From contig CAWAMW010000015.1 in NCBI GenBank assembly GCA_963783305.1, positions 96,001 to 160,000 on the forward strand: a stretch of DNA of 64,000 nt, given 5' to 3'. The stretch comes from an uncultured Gemmatimonadales bacterium (GTDB taxonomy: Bacteria > Gemmatimonadota > Gemmatimonadetes > Longimicrobiales > RSA9). A program made the position numbers. Position 1 is the first letter of the stretch, and every line of letters begins with the position of its first letter. Positions 39,001 through 45,000 of the stretch are shown here, one piece after another.

Positions 39001-42000
39001 CGGTAGCGGTGGACGGACGGATGGCTTTACCTTATCGGGTCTTGTGACCTGAACCGGGATGAGCATGGCGACGAAGGGATCCAGTAAGAAGAAAGCGAAG
39101 GGCGGCGCCCGCAAGGATTCTTCCAGATCCGGTAAGGTGCGAAAGAACGGCGGACCCGACAAGGCGACCCAGCTCGGCTTCTACCGCACCATGTTCTCGG
39201 CGCGGCGTACCGACGACAAGGAGATCGGGCTCAAGCGCCAGAACAAGATCTTCTTCCAGATCTCGGGCGCGGGCCACGAAGCGATCCAGGTGGCTGTGGC
39301 GCACCACCTCCGACCGGGGAAGGACTGGGCGTATCTCTACTACCGGGACCGCGCCCTCTCCCAGGGATTGGGGATGACGCCGTACGAGCACCTGCTCCAG
39401 GCGGTGGGTGCGGAATCGGATCCGGCGAGCGGCGGTCGCCAGATGCCGTCGCACTGGGGCCACCGCGACCTGCGCATCGTCTCCACCTCCTCCCCCACGG
39501 GCACCCAGTTCCTGCAGTCGGTGGGAACGGCAGAGGGCGCGTGGCGCGCCTCGCTGCTGGACGAGATGCGCGAGAAGATCGAAGACTTCGAGGACGACGA
39601 GGTCGTGCTATGCACCACCGGCGAAGGACAGACCTCGGAGGGGGAGTTCTGGGAGGCGTTGAACACCGCGTCCAACCTGAAGCTGCCGGTCATCTTCCTC
39701 ATAGAAGACAATGGCTATGCGATCTCCGTTCCCCGCGAAGTCGGCATCTCCGGCGGGAGCGTGAGCAAACTGGTCAGCGGGTTCCCCGACCTGCTGATCG
39801 AGGAGGTGGACGGGACGGACGTGCTGGCCAGCGTCGAGGCGGCGGAGAAGGTCGTCCGGTACGCCCGCGAGCGAAAGGGTCCGGCACTGCTGCACGCCCG
39901 GGTCATCCGCCCGTACTCGCACTCCATGTCCGATGACGAGCGGATGTACCGGACGGAGGAGGAGCGCGAGGCCGAGGCCACGAGGGACCCGCTTGTGACG
40001 TTCCGTCGCTACCTGGAGGAGGAGGGGGGGGTAACCGCGGAGGAGCTGGAGGCCCTCGAGAAGGAGGTGAACGACGAGATCAATGATGCCTCCGACCGGG
40101 CCCTCGAGCAGCCGCAGCCGGGGCCGGAAACGGCCATGAAATGGCTGTACTCCGAGGACGTGGACGCCACCTCTGACGATTTCGACACCGAGGACTCGCC
40201 CTCCTTCGAGGGTGACGAGACCACCATGGTGGATCTGCTCAACTCGTGCATGCGCAACGAGATGGAGCGGGACCCGCGGATCGTGGTGTTCGGCGAGGAT
40301 GTGGCGGATGTGAGTCGGGAGGATCTTCTCGACAAGGTGAAGGGCAAGGGCGGCGTCTTCAAGGTGACCGCCGGGCTCCAGCGGACCTTCGGCGGGACAC
40401 GGGTCTTCAACTCACCGTTGGCCGAGGCGAACATCGTGGGACGCGCCATCGGCATGGCCGTGCGGGGCCTCAGGCCCGTGGTCGAGATCCAGTTCTTCGA
40501 TTACATCTGGCCGGCGTTCATGCAGATCCGCAACGAGCTGGCCACCATGCGGTACCGGAGCGGTGGCGCCTGGGATGCGCCGGTCGTGATCCGGGTCACC
40601 TATGGGGGCTACCTCAAGGGCGGTTCCATCTATCACAGCCAGACCGGTGAAACGCTCTTCACGCACTCCCCGGGGCTGCGCGTGGTCATGCCATCCACCG
40701 CCCTCGATGCCGCGGGCCTGCTCCGTACGGCCATCCGCTCGGAAGACCCTGTCATCTTCCTCGAGCACAAGCACCTCTACCGCCAGGTCTACAACAAGAG
40801 CCCCTATCCCGGGCCCGAGTTCATGATCCCGTTCGGCAAGGCGAAGGTCGTGCGGGAGGGCACGGACCTGACCGTCGTGACCTGCGGGGCGGTGGTAAAG
40901 CGGTCGCTGGACGCCGCCAAGATCGCGGAGCAGGATGGCGTGAGCGTGGAGGTGATCGACCTGCGGTCCCTGAACCCGCTCGACATGGAGACCATCGCCG
41001 CGAGCGTCAAGAAGACCAACAAGGTGGTGGTGGCCTACGAGGACAGCCTGAGCTGGGGCATAGGGAGCGAGATCAGCGCCCGCATCGCCAGTGACCTGTT
41101 CGAGTGGCTCGATGGCCCCGTCAGGCGCGTGGCCAGCCTGGACACCTGGGTCGCGTACGCACCGCAGCTCGAGGCCGCGATCCTGCCGAACGCCGACGAC
41201 GTCCTGAAGGCCATCCGGGAGCTGGCGGACTACTAGGCTGGGCTCGCCTTCGGCTCGCGGGGGGCGGCCTAATCGGCCGCGGAGAGCGGCCTATCGGCCG
41301 CGGGGGGCTCGCCTTCGGCTCGCGGAGAGCGGCCTATCGGCCGCGGGGGGCTCGCCTTCGGCTCGCGGAGAGCGGCCTACGGCCGCGGGGGGCTCGCTAT
41401 CGCTCGCGGAAGTAGATGGCGCGGCGGGTGAGGATTCGGGTGGCGCGGAGAAGGAGGGAGCGGAGGCGCTGCTCCGCTGAATCGGCGACCAGCCCCCTCC
41501 GGGCGAGGAAGCTGAGGATGGCGGCCGTCTCGGTGGCGGAGCGGCAGGCGTAGCGGTAAAAGCGCGCCTTGTCGCCACGACTGTATTCCCCGTGGGCTTC
41601 CGCGGTGTTCGTCAGCACCGACAGGCCCGCGCGGCCCAGTTGGGATGCACCCCACGGTCGCCCACGGCGGATGCGCAGCGCCACCTCATCCGCCATCTCC
41701 GCGATCTCCATAGCCAGCCCGAACACCTCCTCGTCCTCGAACCTGAAGTGCTCCGCCGCCCCCGCACGTTGTCCCGCCGCTCGATCACCCATACCCGAAG
41801 TTCATGCCGCTCCGTGGGCAAAGCCATGGTCCAATGAGCCCGGCGAGCGCAGCGAGCCCTCCGCGGCCGAAGGCGAACCCGCCGCGGCCGAAGGCCGCCC
41901 TCCGCGAGCCGAAGGCGAGCCCTCCGCGGCCGAAGGCCGCCCTCCGCGAGCCGAAGGCGAACCCTCCGCGGCCGAAGGCCGCCCTCCGCGAGCCGAAGGC

Positions 42001-45000
42001 GAGCCCTCCGCGGCCGAAGGCCGCCCCCCGCGGAGAGCGCCAGCGAGCCGCCCCCCCTATCTTCCCGCCATGACCGCCACGTTCCGCTTCCTCAGAGAGT
42101 TCCTGCGCCCGCGGCCGCACGCGGTGGTGCGAGAGGAGACGTCGTACGAACGGGATGGACGGCGGCTCCCGGCCACGCTCTACCGTCCAGCATCCGGGCG
42201 TCCCGACCGGCCGCTCCCGGGGTGGATCACGCTCCACGGTCTCACCCGCAGGGGCCGCGAGCATCCGTCCCTTGACCGATTAGCCAGGGCGGTAGCGGCA
42301 TCGGGGGCGGTGGTGCTGGTACCGGATCTGCCGGAGTGGCGCGAGCTGCACATCGCGCCGGAGACGACGGTCGCGACGATCAAGGCGGCGGTGCTGGAGC
42401 TCGACGGGAGGCCCCTGACGGAGGCCGGCCGGATCGGCGTGATCGGCTTCTCGTTCGGTGCGACGCAGGCGCTGGTGGCGGCCACGGACCCGGCACTGCG
42501 CAGCCACCTTGCGGGAGTGGTGGCGTGGGGCGGCTACGCGGACATTTTCCAGGCCACCCGGTTCGCGTTCCTGGGGAGACACGAGCTGGACGGGACGGAA
42601 TACCACCTCGACCCGGACCCCTATGGCCGCTGGATCCTGGCGGGTAACTACCTGACGCTTCTCCCGGAGCACGCGGACGACCACGCGCTGGCGGAGGCGC
42701 TCCTCGGTCTGGCGCAGGACGTGGGCCGGTTGGAGATCATGTCGTGGAGCCCGGAAACGGACCCCATGAAGGTGGCCGCGCGCTCCGGCCTGACCCGCGT
42801 CCAGCAAGAAGTCTTCGACCTGGTGGCGCCTCCGGCGGATTCGTCGTACGGAGCGGAGGAGCGGCGTCGAGTGGAGGAGCTGGTGCGGCGAATGACGGAG
42901 CGGGCGGTGGACCGGGAGCCGCTGCTGGAGGCGCGGCCCTACCTGAGCGGGGTGCCCGTCCCGGTCTGTCTCGCCCATGGGCGAGAGGATCGGCTCATGC
43001 CGTGGACGGAGATGATCCGGCTCAGGCGCCAGCTGCCGGAGGACCGGGTGCGCTACAGCGCTGTCACCAGCCTCTTCTCCCACTCCTTCGGAGAGCGCCG
43101 GTTTCCCTCCCCTGCCGTCCTTCTGGAGATGGTGCGCTTCGTTCGCCTGATCAGCCGGATGCTCCGTCTGATCTGATCGACCGCATCGTGGAGATCCCCT
43201 CTCGGATCCGCTCCAGCAGCCACTCCACGGCGGCGGGATCGCCCGGGGTGGGGTCCAGCGGCTTGCCCTGAACTTCGCGGATCGCCACGCGGGCCATATA
43301 CTGATGCCCTCCACCCATCCCCTCCTCCTCCGCGAGGGTTTTCGCCAGGTCGCCCGCCGAGAGCGTGGCGCCCGCGCGCCGCAGGTTGATGACCAGCTGG
43401 CCCTCCACCAGTCCAGCGGCCGCCGACCACGAGACCCCCTCGATCCCGAGACAGAAGTCCGCCAGGCTGGGCAGCACGTTGGCGGCGCGGGGATCGAGCG
43501 GGCCCGCCCATGCCACGGCCACCTCTCCGTCGATGCCGAGCCCTGCCAGGCCGCTGCCCAGAGCCCGGACGGCGGCCTGGGAGAAGGCCGGACGCCCGAT
43601 CTTTCTAAGCAGCTCGTGGTCCGCGATCCCCTGGAGAAAGGCGTACGCCTCGACATCGGCGGCCGTGGTCCCCCGACGCAGCACCTCGGTATCCGTGCGA
43701 ATGCCGTACACGAGGGCGGTGGCGAGGCGCGGTGTAATGCCGCGCTCGTCGTTCACACACAGGTACTCGGTCACCATGGTCGCGGCCGCGCCCATCTGCG
43801 GGCGAATATCCACGAAATCGGCGGAGTATCCGCGCCGAACCGGGTGATGGTCGATGACGGCATAGCGGGTCTGCGACTCGACGGGTGCGGGCTGTGTGTC
43901 TACGGCGATCACCCGCTTGAAGTGGTGGAGCTCCGACTCACTCACTCGCACCACGCGCAGGTCCAGCAGCTCCGCCAGCCGCCGGTTCTCGGGCCGCGTC
44001 ACCTCGCCCAGGCTGATCACCGGCGCGTCCTCTTCCTCACGGTGCAGGACCGTCCTGAGCCCGAGCGCGCTCGCCATCCCGTCGGGATCCGGGTCCTGCT
44101 GGACCAGGATCGGTACCACATCGGTTCCCTGGGCGAACGCCCTGAGGTCGTGAACGCGTCTGGCCGCCTCCGCGGCCCTGGTGTCCGTTATTGACAGTTT
44201 GGTAACCCGCTCCCGTCATCCATGGTCAAGAGGTGCCGGCGCCGCACGACGAGTGAACCGAAGACACCGGTCCCGTCGCCGCTGACGCTGGGCACCCGAA
44301 CCTGCCCGGATGGATTGAAGTTCCCGCCCCGCGCCCAGTTCACATAGTTCTGGTCGCCGGCCGCCACGATGATCTCCGCTCGCGCGCCGTTCGGCAATCC
44401 GTCCTGTAACGCGAGGAGCAAGTCCCGCTCCACCGTAAACCGGTCGAAGACGCCGAACTCGCCGGGGAATACGATCGTCGTGTCGGCTCCGCCGACGGAG
44501 AGGCCCACCAGCTCCAGCTCGTTCGGGGGTTCGGGGATCCCGAGCTCCGCCAGCCCCTTTGCCAGGTTCTGGAAGTTCGCGACCGTCTGGTACGCGCGGG
44601 CGCCCTCCGACTGCGACCACACCAGCCGGAAGGAGCGGGCGGGCTCGACGAGGCACGCCGCCGAGCCGGGCAGTATGACCTCGAACTCGCCAGGCACCGT
44701 CGTGCGGCCGGTGAGGCGCCGGCCGTCGCTGAGCGTCACGTCCAGCCGATAGGTCATGCCGGGGCGTACGAAGTCGGGAACCGGCAGAGACGTGTAGCAG
44801 CTCCCGCCCTGCCCCTCCGGGTACTGCGTGTAGTACGCGCACTGCTGGCGCACGGTGGGGTTGAAGCCGGGGAAGAAGACCAGCTCCACTCCGGCTTCGT
44901 TCCGCACGCGAACCTCGGCGCCGGTCACCCGGATCGTGCTGTCCGACCCCGGCGTGGTCCGGTAGAGGAACACCTCCTGCCGCGCGAGCTCCGGCCGCAG

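What a model noticed while it worked through the whole genome (the two positions that open the first line are those of the whole stretch)
41240..42033. rRNA-IVS-type genes sit in long hairpin cassettes between housekeeping genes, outside any rRNA
Eight small genes of the two families otherwise known from 23S rRNA intervening sequences (six S23p/Avd-like four-helix-bundle genes, PF05635, and two GxxExxY PD-(D/E)XK genes) lie far from rRNA, mostly antisense between co-directional housekeeping genes, and are bracketed by inverted repeats of 36 to about 170 nt that are themselves built from tandem 6-24-nt units, a different unit in each copy. Boldest reading: IVS elements are not an rRNA peculiarity but a general class of hairpin-bounded, mobile or fast-turning-over cassettes that colonise transcribed intergenic DNA, their giant stem serving as an RNase III/insulator site and the encoded protein serving the element; the same bracket surr [...]
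Evidence so far: Copies: g00099 C2:93537-94264, g02431 C15:137240-138033, g02972 C16:293812-294696, g02048 C12:145156-145682, g02043 C12:141373-141870 have blastn inverted repeats between their flanks (78-96% id, 36-167 nt, calls 79, 83); g02016 (C12:103936-104319) and g01228 (C7:128502-129020) have complementary microsatellite arrays on the two sides (TRF, call 80); g01792 has none. So 7 of 8 are bracketed; 6 of 8 are antisense to both neighbours. Arms are tandem arrays (period 21-24 nt, 6-11 copies; left unit = reverse complement of right unit; call 80). ORF-less twins: C16:413195-413786 (11x24 nt vs 11x22 nt, loop ~75-90 nt), C11:40815-41376 (between tolQ and tolR homologs g01801/g01802), C2:13248-13704, [...]
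(Added by a program. Inside this text positions count along the whole contig: contig position 96,001 is position 1 of the stretch shown here. "Call 12" and the like, gene names such as g00115 and contig names such as C1 are that model's own, and its searches are not shown. The text may have been shortened before it was handed on; [...] marks where a part breaks off. The agent that wrote the report below was given it as the finding of a first reader that could run no searches.)

Follow-up and report, generated by a model that had tools for sequence, protein, structure and literature searches.

The report
Repeat-armed small-gene cassettes at gene junctions
A small gene of the kind known from the spacer that interrupts some ribosomal RNA genes sits here between ordinary genes inside two inverted repeat arms, and it is gained, lost and flipped among relatives while gene-less copies of its arms are scattered over the genome, which points to a widespread, barely described selfish element behind both those spacers and bacterial seven-base repeats.

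Summary
Confirmed. A PF05635 four-helix-bundle gene (41397-41792, minus) lies between an E1 dehydrogenase and a hydrolase inside inverted tandem arms (87% over 167 columns). Such brackets flank 59 of 70 family loci in the order and 54 of 74 across phyla, versus 2 of 670 and 0 of 122 controls; none of 80 cross-phylum loci lay at rRNA. New here: (1) this junction is an allelic series in the genus: antisense gene, sense (inverted) ortholog, truncated gene, ORF-less arms, empty; (2) each cassette in the genome has its own family of 7-28 gene-less arm copies, as RAYT genes have REPs; (3) these arms are arrays of C(GNA)G/GA-zipper mini-hairpins, a DNA-favoured fold; (4) published tables place a four-unit GGGAATC array at the start of Xcc0516, and the Coxiella IVS has heptamer arms. 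Corrections: 'mostly antisense' holds only for this genome; units are shared with ORF-less copies; RNase III or insulator function is untested. No mobilising enzyme is identified: no reverse transcriptase, Y1 transposases have other ends, GxxExxY nuclease is the candidate. The scan has noted this class on other DNA many times; I found no paper describing it.

The parts
39059..41236 (+). Left neighbour: fused 2-oxoacid dehydrogenase E1 alpha/beta; its stop codon ends 3 nt before the left arm
41240..41410 (.). Left (5', G-rich) arm: about 8 units of a 15-17 nt mini-hairpin plus 5-nt linker; GNA/GNNA loops and tandem GA pairs lie on the minus strand; the innermost unit supplies the TAG stop of the ORF
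41397..41792 (-). Four-helix-bundle (S23p/Xcc0516/Avd-like, PF05635, TIGR02436) gene, 131 aa; start codon uncertain; sister to the ortholog at the same junction in G006; second codon positions conserved over third (0.72 vs 0.42)
41843..42051 (.). Right (3', C-rich) arm: about 9 units, core 42-mers 96-100% identical; GNA loops on the plus strand; inverted copy of the left arm family
42058..42063 (+). TATCTT 6 nt before the hydrolase ATG: possible -10 box of a leaderless promoter, left intact by the cassette (inference; similar TAnnnT boxes by eye in many relatives; no sigma-70 site called)
42070..43176 (+). Right neighbour: alpha/beta hydrolase, present in 41 of 41 genomes searched

Best explanation
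A selfish or semi-domesticated gene-plus-repeat cassette that works like a RAYT/REPIN system but with a non-HUH protein. Shown: anatomy (G/purine-rich tandem arm, small gene, inverted arm) at gene junctions, mostly right behind a stop codon; gain, loss, truncation, ORF deletion and inversion at one junction; a cognate family of gene-less arm pairs and solo arms for each cassette; purifying selection on the protein. Inferred: the Avd-like pentamer binds its own arm repeat in single-stranded or extruded form, and a nuclease in trans (the GxxExxY PD-(D/E)XK protein of the sister cassette is the best candidate) with host repair copies arm pairs or whole cassettes to new junctions; slippage renews the arrays and recombination between arms inverts or deletes the loop. 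Inferred: once transcribed, the arms pair and hide the insert, so it is tolerated; where such a cassette lands in an rRNA helix, RNase III cuts the stem and it is called an IVS.
For: Bracket specificity: 59 of 70, 54 of 74, 18 of 26 for GxxExxY against 2 of 670 and 0 of 122. Arms co-evolve: 38 different heptamer words among 48 loci, yet the downstream unit is within one mismatch of the reverse complement of the upstream unit in 35 of 39 loci against 134 of 2000 cross-locus pairs. Allelic series at this junction with filled and empty sites in both halves of the genus tree. Closest relatives of the tadA, glyS and meaB copies sit at other junctions in sister species whose own site lacks the gene. 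Cognate families of 18, 16, 7, 13, 8, 28 and 10 further loci; the same in Brevundimonas G134 (about 9 loci, 5 close inverted pairs, 0 matches in 3 rhizobial genomes). Mini-hairpin signature: 165 G..A loops against 4 T..C loops among 242 frames, 165 hits against 11 in the reversed genome, inner stems complementary in 83 of 96 and 52 of 60; DNA GCGNAGC melts at 70-76 C, the RNA analogue r(GCGAAAGC) at 39 C (PMC13037366). A four-unit, 28-nt GGGAATC array lies 6 nt behind bccP and overlaps the start of XCC0516 (PMC4692102 supplement). GxxExxY and four-helix genes co-occur (family f1: 26 both, 7 and 1 single, 6 neither; f2: 1 and 0 of 40).
Against: No mobilising enzyme is shown; the four-helix protein has no catalytic motif. 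No target-site duplication was seen by eye at 13 GxxExxY-family loci. No near-identical gene duplicates exist in the genome, so whole-cassette hops are not recent. Several sites are old and vertically kept (E1, ABC-transporter and metH junctions). The G006 arms at this junction have no family in G006 (2 matches, both its own). The mini-hairpin unit is lineage-restricted (clearly above control in about 6 of 41 family genomes); most relatives use plain 6-9-mers that cannot fold so. Standard energy models favour the inward, not the GNA, strand in most arms. Co-occurrence counts come from related genomes.
Confidence: 0.55

Rival explanations
1. RNA-level IVS outside rRNA: the long stem is selected as an RNase III site or insulator that splits and differentially stabilises host transcripts; DNA turnover is a by-product.
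For: Very stable predicted RNA stem. Four-helix cassettes favour junctions that a neighbour reads into: convergent 15 against divergent 2, background 431 to 433, p = 0.001. RNase III cuts the Coxiella IVS in the first heptamer repeat (PMC4990558). A G-rich-first order would keep C-rich RNA paired and away from Rho (inference); 5' arm G>C in 53 of 53 scored cross-phylum loci.
Against: The design is the same on both strands and the ortholog flips. Many family members are solo arms with no partner. GxxExxY cassettes are often at divergent junctions (10 of 26). The same polarity holds in cyanobacterial and archaeal loci, groups that lack Rho (recalled). Loops are GNA/GNNA, mostly not GNRA. The G-U test showed no bias (102:102) but its positive control failed, so it counts for neither side.
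Confidence: 0.2
2. Domesticated regulator: each four-helix protein is a host-serving nucleic-acid binder whose cognate repeats mark transcripts or chromosome sites; mobility is ancient and the families are binding sites kept by selection.
For: Purifying selection and site-specific clades across the genus; one gene per repeat family; no match among 50,697 phage records for either family and 39 of 72,556 plasmid records for the four-helix gene, the housekeeping-like pattern reported for RAYTs (PMC5581495, abstract).
Against: Clean loss in 2 of 7 genus genomes and decay in 2 more at this junction; frameshifted remnants; arm words replaced while the gene stays; 60 of 121 genomes of the order have no match; S23p is dispensable in Coxiella strains and had no growth effect in E. 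coli (PMC4990558).
Confidence: 0.15
3. No dedicated machinery: the genes spread by horizontal transfer and homologous recombination in flanking genes; arrays arise by slippage, are mirrored by template switching and spread by gene conversion.
For: No enzyme found; arrays often start at or overlap a stop codon; arms differ in unit length within a pair.
Against: Does not explain why the bracket is confined to two gene families, the constant four heptamers (median 4.4 copies) or three 9-mers with a defined outer end, or the fixed polarity.
Confidence: 0.1
4. Retro-element: the Avd-like protein recruits a reverse transcriptase in trans, the stem acting like the duplex that encloses the DGR template.
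For: Fold match to Avd (4DWL, TM 0.71); Avd binds an RNA stem-loop and an upstream-downstream duplex frames the DGR template (bioRxiv 2023.10.23.563531, passages).
Against: No PF00078 in this 96%-complete genome; RTs are commonest where cassettes are missing (f2 23 of 40 with RT, 1 of 40 with the gene; f1 8 of 40 and 33 of 40).
Confidence: 0.05

Closest known systems
ORF-bearing 23S rRNA intervening sequences (Coxiella burnetii helix 45; Leptospira), PMC4990558
   Same: Same protein family; terminal inverted repeats; 28-bp stem; three to four purine-rich heptamers just upstream of the ATG, matching the cross-phylum median of 4.4 heptamers; ORF-less and ORF-bearing forms.
   Different: Lies at mRNA gene junctions, not in rRNA; either orientation; arms here are 21-22-nt mini-hairpin units about 170 nt long; genome-wide families of gene-less arms; cleavage untested.
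RAYT-REP/REPIN and TIRYT-TIR systems (PMC3733652 passages; PMC5581495 abstract and section list)
   Same: A low-copy, mainly chromosomal gene flanked by inverted repeats whose word is abundant in extragenic DNA as singles, inverted pairs and clusters; partners of a pair often differ slightly.
   Different: The protein is a four-helix bundle or a PD-(D/E)XK nuclease, not an HUH Y1 transposase; arms are tandem arrays; the genome's Y1 genes carry unrelated 22-28 bp ends.
GGGAATC heptamer repeats of Xanthomonas and Nostoc (Rehm et al. 2015, PMC4692102); cyanobacterial STRR (name recalled)
   Same: Four-unit preference, 70-75 inverted pairs, G-rich arm right behind stop codons, scarcity between divergent genes; one array sits at the start of XCC0516.
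   Different: Read there as G-quadruplex motifs not linked to mobile elements; main text never mentions helix-bundle or intervening sequences. That array is listed without an inverted partner.
DGR accessory protein Avd; Xcc0516 (2GSC); BT_0352 (2RLD)
   Same: Same fold (TM 0.70-0.78, rmsd 1.5-2.1); the solved sequence relatives have five chains per entry.
   Different: No reverse transcriptase in the genome; 12-13% identity to Avd.
DNA mini-hairpins GCGNAGC / GCGNNAGC (phage G4 origin, RSF1010-type ssiA, N4 promoters), PMC13037366
   Same: C-G closed GNA and GNNA loops.
   Different: Here in tandem arrays with added GA/GA zipper, at about 47 chromosomal loci; no bound protein known.

Membership tests
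PF05635 / TIGR02436 four-helix-bundle proteins | Profile score above curated cut-off | tested here: met
   48 vs 33.8 bits; 49.5 vs 24 bits
PF05635 / TIGR02436 four-helix-bundle proteins | Four-helix fold like 2GSC/2RLD | tested here: met
   AlphaFold2 pLDDT 93, four helices; top Foldseek hits 2RLD and 2GSC
rRNA intervening sequence (IVS) | Located inside a 16S or 23S rRNA gene | tested here: not met
   No rRNA in the 8 loci; both 23S genes uninterrupted; 0 of 80 cross-phylum loci match rRNA (many are MAGs, which often lack rRNA)
rRNA intervening sequence (IVS) | Terminal inverted repeats that close a stem around an S23p ORF | tested here: met
rRNA intervening sequence (IVS) | ORF on the transcribed host strand | tested here: not met
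   Antisense in the window; sense in the G006 ortholog and in 49 of 74 cross-phylum loci
rRNA intervening sequence (IVS) | Excision by RNase III without ligation | not testable with these tools
   No RNA run listed
RAYT-REP/REPIN | Gene flanked by repeats that are abundant in extragenic DNA of the same genome | tested here: met
   7-28 further loci per cassette; G134, G135; one exception, G006
RAYT-REP/REPIN | HUH Y1 tyrosine transposase between the repeats | tested here: not met
   Cargo is PF05635 or PF13366; the two PF01797 genes have other ends
RAYT-REP/REPIN | Terminal GTAG or CGTC tag at the foot of the palindrome | tested here: inconclusive
   No such tag by eye in the unit listing of six arm pairs; not scored
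IS / MITE | Target-site duplication | tested here: inconclusive
   None by eye at 13 GxxExxY-family loci; empty sites come from species 72-85% identical, too far to define ends
IS / MITE | Known transposase in the element | tested here: not met
   GxxExxY gives only a generic PD-(D/E)XK fold
Diversity-generating retroelement | Reverse transcriptase with the Avd-like gene | tested here: not met
   0 PF00078 matches in G000, 96% complete
Diversity-generating retroelement | TR/VR pair differing at adenines | not tested
   not searched
PD-(D/E)XK nuclease (GxxExxY sister cassette) | Core fold and E...D...ExK catalytic residues | tested here: met
   E26, E76, K78 invariant and D66 nearly so in 25 sequences; best Z 8.3, rmsd 2.9, 97 aligned, among many tied nucleases; activity untested

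The most novel reading that the evidence does not exclude
Four-helix-bundle and GxxExxY cassettes are a third, undescribed class of autonomous-gene-plus-short-repeat system beside RAYT/REP and IS/MITE, using neither an HUH transposase nor a reverse transcriptase. Each protein variant propagates its own repeat word. That one mechanism would be the source of bacterial heptamer repeats (Xanthomonas, cyanobacteria), of the mini-hairpin arrays seen here, of the 'cas-associated' IVP genes and of ORF-bearing rRNA intervening sequences.
Probability: 0.4. Interest if true: 0.88.

Novelty: new variant of a known kind. Interest (0 to 1): 0.7.

Why it matters
The origin of rRNA intervening sequences and of the abundant 7-base repeats in bacterial intergenic DNA are both open questions (stated as open in PMC4990558 and PMC4692102). 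The data tie them to one gene-plus-arms layout found in many phyla and archaea, and give direct tests: a solved pentamer (Xcc0516) sits beside its own repeat word, and each cassette predicts which repeat family its protein should bind. It would also re-read the reported association of 23S_rRNA_IVP genes with cas operons (PMC3936711, PMC10910872) as junction colonisation. If the proteins copy their arms, this is a new small DNA-mobility chemistry.

Tried and rejected
G-U wobble asymmetry as a test of RNA-strand selection: no bias (102:102; 53:44; fractions 0.50-0.55), but the rRNA control also showed none (0:2; 63:57) and tRNA acceptor stems gave only 12:6, so the test is uninformative. Sequencing runs: no RNA holder listed; three DNA runs were laid, one contig in X2 joins 41236 to 42067 with 10 letters between, but with only 24 letters on one side at 80% likeness it is probably another organism's empty site. 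Assembly artefact: rejected, since arms and gene recur at the same junction in sister species. Intrinsic terminator or sigma-70 promoter in the cassette: none called. Resident Y1 transposase as mobiliser: has its own unrelated ends. Resident reverse transcriptase: absent and anti-distributed. A specific resolvase identity for GxxExxY: no Foldseek match at E<=0.001; Cas4, lambda-exo, Hjc and restriction-like folds are tied. Rho avoidance as sole cause of arm polarity: weakened by cyanobacterial and archaeal loci. Phage records: no match for either protein. No complex between the two proteins was predicted, so binding between them is open. The original Leptospira IVS paper was not available. Literature searches that found no description of the class; the library lacks most subscription journals.

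
Full report
OBSERVATION. The window holds a 131-codon ORF at 41397-41792 on the minus strand. 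It scores above the cut-offs of PF05635 and TIGR02436. Its AlphaFold2 model (pLDDT 93, four helices) matches BT_0352 and Xcc0516 first and the DGR protein Avd next. It lies between a fused E1 dehydrogenase and an alpha/beta hydrolase, both on plus. Its flanks are tandem arrays of period 21-22 that align as an inverted repeat, 87% over 167 columns. The genome has 6 PF05635 and 2 PF13366 genes, one frameshifted remnant without arms and two uninterrupted 23S genes. Neighbours checked by profile are tadA, glyS, metH, an ABC transporter and meaB.

SPECIFICITY. I scored 350-nt flanks against each other as inverted repeats. Of more than 200 matches in 121 genomes of the order (61 genomes positive) I used 76 loci: this genome's 6, the 30 returned by the tool and 40 picked by hand, mostly from contiguous genomes. 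Six were dropped for short flanks; 59 of 70 scored 40 or more, 63 of 70 beat the best of 30 shuffles, and 8 of 70 scored so as direct repeats. Among 676 small predicted genes of this genome 8 scored 40 or more, 6 of them these genes. GxxExxY loci: 18 of 26, five of 31 dropped. Six were dropped; 54 of 74 scored 32 or more (37 scored 40 or more) against 0 of 122 shifted windows, and none of the 80 matched rRNA, with the caveat that MAGs often lack rRNA. The period was 7 in 48 of 50 upstream arrays, with a median of 4.4 copies and 38 different words; the downstream word was within one mismatch of the reverse complement in 35 of 39 loci against 134 of 2000 cross-locus pairs. The 5' arm was G-rich in 53 of 53 decided cases and 45 against 12 in the order. 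Rows from unpublished genomes: G024 gives one empty site, one of the 70 and one of the 26 loci; G020, G021, G024 and G026 are in the tallies. No conclusion depends on them alone.

ORIENTATION. Six of 8 are antisense to both neighbours here, but over the order the classes are sense 29, antisense 19, convergent 15, divergent 2, unclear 5 (a second method gave 25, 15, 16, 2, 12), and across phyla sense 49, antisense 3, convergent 5, divergent 3, unclear 14. Four-helix cassettes avoid divergent junctions (15 against 2, background equal, p = 0.001). GxxExxY cassettes do not: divergent 10, antisense 8, convergent 2, sense 1, unclear 5 of 26.

HISTORY OF THIS JUNCTION. Behind the E1 stop codon the seven genomes of the genus show: arms plus antisense gene (G000); arms plus the C-terminal part of the gene, antisense (G003); arms homologous to those of G003 with the orthologous gene in sense orientation (G006); an ORF-less arm pair (G004); the start of an arm at a contig end (G005); and empty spacers of 92 and 58 nt (G001, G002, 74% and 72% complete). 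Three genomes outside the genus have E1 and hydrolase 37-114 nt apart. The G000 and G006 proteins are sisters (97/98) with codon-position identity 0.66, 0.72, 0.42, which indicates selection on the protein. G000's arms show no blastn similarity to those of G003 or G006, so the arms were replaced while the gene stayed. The host tree splits the genus into {G000, G005, G002} and {G003, G006, G001, G004}; filled and empty sites are in both halves, so either one old insertion with repeated loss and an inversion, or repeated arrival. In G004 and G006 other genes separate the cassette from the hydrolase. Other junctions: the tadA site is empty in 4 of 5 genomes searched; the glyS site is empty in G006 and holds other hairpin-like inserts in G001 and G004; the meaB site is short in G001 and G005; the closest relatives of those three genes lie at other junctions. 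The metH site holds one subfamily in G000 and G005 and another in G001 and G006. Of 13 places in G000 that correspond to relatives' filled sites, most were plain, one held an ORF-less arm pair and one the remnant.

EACH CASSETTE HAS ITS OWN REPEAT FAMILY. Blasting the arms against the genome gave 18 further loci for the window's arms, and 16, 7, 13, 8 and 28 for the other five four-helix cassettes, plus 10 gene-less loci for the two GxxExxY cassettes; the families overlap little. They occur as close inverted pairs and as solo arms, mostly right behind a stop codon or just before a start. GxxExxY-type twins have a defined outer end and three 9-nt units. The same holds elsewhere: the heptamer flanking the gene in Brevundimonas G134 occurs at about 9 loci, 5 as close inverted pairs, in a second Brevundimonas too, and in none of 3 rhizobial genomes; the Rhizobium word occurs at 6 places in its own genome and once in the other four. 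The window's arm finds 19 matches in G000, 13, 6, 6 and 1 in four sister species and none in the two with an empty site. One counter-example: G006's arms at this junction are single-copy. This is the pattern that marks RAYT genes and their REPs (PMC5581495, abstract and section titles; PMC3733652, passages).

ANATOMY OF THE UNITS. In this genus the long units are a 15-21-nt hairpin plus a 5-6-nt linker that names the family. In 8 arm pairs, 87 of 114 hairpins on the strand running outward from the centre have a G..A loop and 77 of 114 a tandem GA/GA pair; the inward strand is partly their mirror. Genome-wide, the frame GCGA-X-C-loop-G-X'-GAGC has 165 G..A loops and 4 T..C loops among 242, 165 hits against 11 in the reversed genome, and X pairs with X' in 83 of 96 one-base and 52 of 60 two-base cases; these are 47 loci, not independent copies. 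Only GNA triloops form the stable DNA mini-hairpin, and the RNA analogue is far weaker (PMC13037366, section 2.3 and passages). The same outward polarity appears in 4 of 4 relatives' loci with enough hairpins (21 against 0) and in 4 genus loci. Limits: the motif is at background in most of 41 family genomes, and nearest-neighbour models, which I believe undervalue these loops (recalled), favour the inward strand in most arms.

WHAT COULD MOVE IT. No reverse transcriptase in G000, and RTs are commonest in the family that lacks the cassettes. The two Y1 transposases carry unrelated ends. GxxExxY keeps an invariant catalytic set on a generic PD-(D/E)XK fold and co-occurs with the four-helix genes (Fisher p = 0.003 in family f1, related genomes). 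It is the only catalytic candidate, by inference. Neither protein matched 50,697 phage records; the four-helix query matched 39 of 72,556 plasmid records, mostly cyanobacterial.

RNA ROLE. The stem is very stable on both strands, but nothing here shows processing. The wobble test failed its control. RNase III cleavage is shown only for the Coxiella rRNA copy (PMC4990558, passages and one section; figures not seen).

WHAT IS IN PRINT. The Coxiella IVS has three or four purine-rich heptamers before the ATG and a 28-bp terminal stem. Rehm et al. describe 186 GGGAATC repeats in X. campestris, mostly four units, 70 inverted pairs, close behind stop codons (two sections and passages); their supplement lists a four-unit, 28-nt array 6 nt behind bccP overlapping the start of XCC0516, without an inverted partner; the main text makes no link to the protein. 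IVP genes were noted inside cas operons (PMC3936711, one section; PMC10910872, legend) and scattered over several rRNA sites in CPR bacteria (bioRxiv 2024.02.27.582315, passages; its supplements are closed). PF13366 is listed as unknown with multiple transfers (PMC3424549, table row). I recall that the TIGR02436 comment says the rRNA location is not conserved; no call shows this. Eight searches found no paper on the bracket as a class. Earlier notes of this scan report the class in at least 10 other genomes; they are unchecked and not counted as support. They gave me the Rehm paper as a lead.

VERDICT. Real, widespread and not ordinary. It works most like RAYT/REPIN, is not a member of that family, and is not an IVS by location, though ORF-bearing IVSs look like members of it. 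Architecture, turnover and cognate families are shown; protein function, mobilising enzyme and RNA processing are inferred or open.

Noticed in passing
L220-L222 (G014:C35:6,000-46,600): A chromosomal integron: 15 near-identical attC-like repeats ending in GTTA, beside a tyrosine recombinase with best hits to integron integrases (208.9 bits, below the 265 cut-off). Each repeat carries the same GA-zipper/GNA mini-hairpin unit as the arms studied here, in an element class known to act as folded ssDNA.
   Followed up: partly
G000 C15:94701-94843, C17:315024-315165, C15:385962-386104; C2:249115-250220; C6:65500-66610: Three 142-143-nt MITE-like elements with 22-25-bp perfect ends; the same end flanks the Y1 (RAYT/TIRYT-like) transposase on C2 and a variant flanks the one on C6. 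They look like that transposase's non-autonomous partners, not orphans.
   Followed up: partly
G000 C15:319246-319927: 35-bp inverted repeat around a decayed Y1-transposase-like stretch (motif seen by eye).
   Followed up: no
G000 C11:23883-24461 and C16:128999-129522: ORF-less inverted repeats of 165 bp (77%) and 45 bp (91%) of other families, the second with internal 9-mer arrays.
   Followed up: no
window 10986-11059 and 6250-6297, 10069-10124: A heptamer array of about 10 copies, a 9-mer array of 5 copies and an 11-mer array.
   Followed up: no
G000 C12:135,200-145,700: A 10-kb stretch with both GxxExxY genes and several ORF-less GxxExxY-type arm pairs, some in tandem duplications.
   Followed up: partly
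window 42058-42072 and L010-L033: A TAnnnT box 6-8 nt before the hydrolase start codon recurs across the family, suggesting leaderless transcription (by eye).
   Followed up: no
G000 C11:35635-35930: Frameshifted four-helix-bundle remnant without arms, at a junction where G004 has a full-length match.
   Followed up: partly
L271 (Nostoc PCC 7120 plasmid alpha, 3776-4170): Four-helix gene with only the downstream heptamer arm; a transposase gene lies upstream.
   Followed up: no
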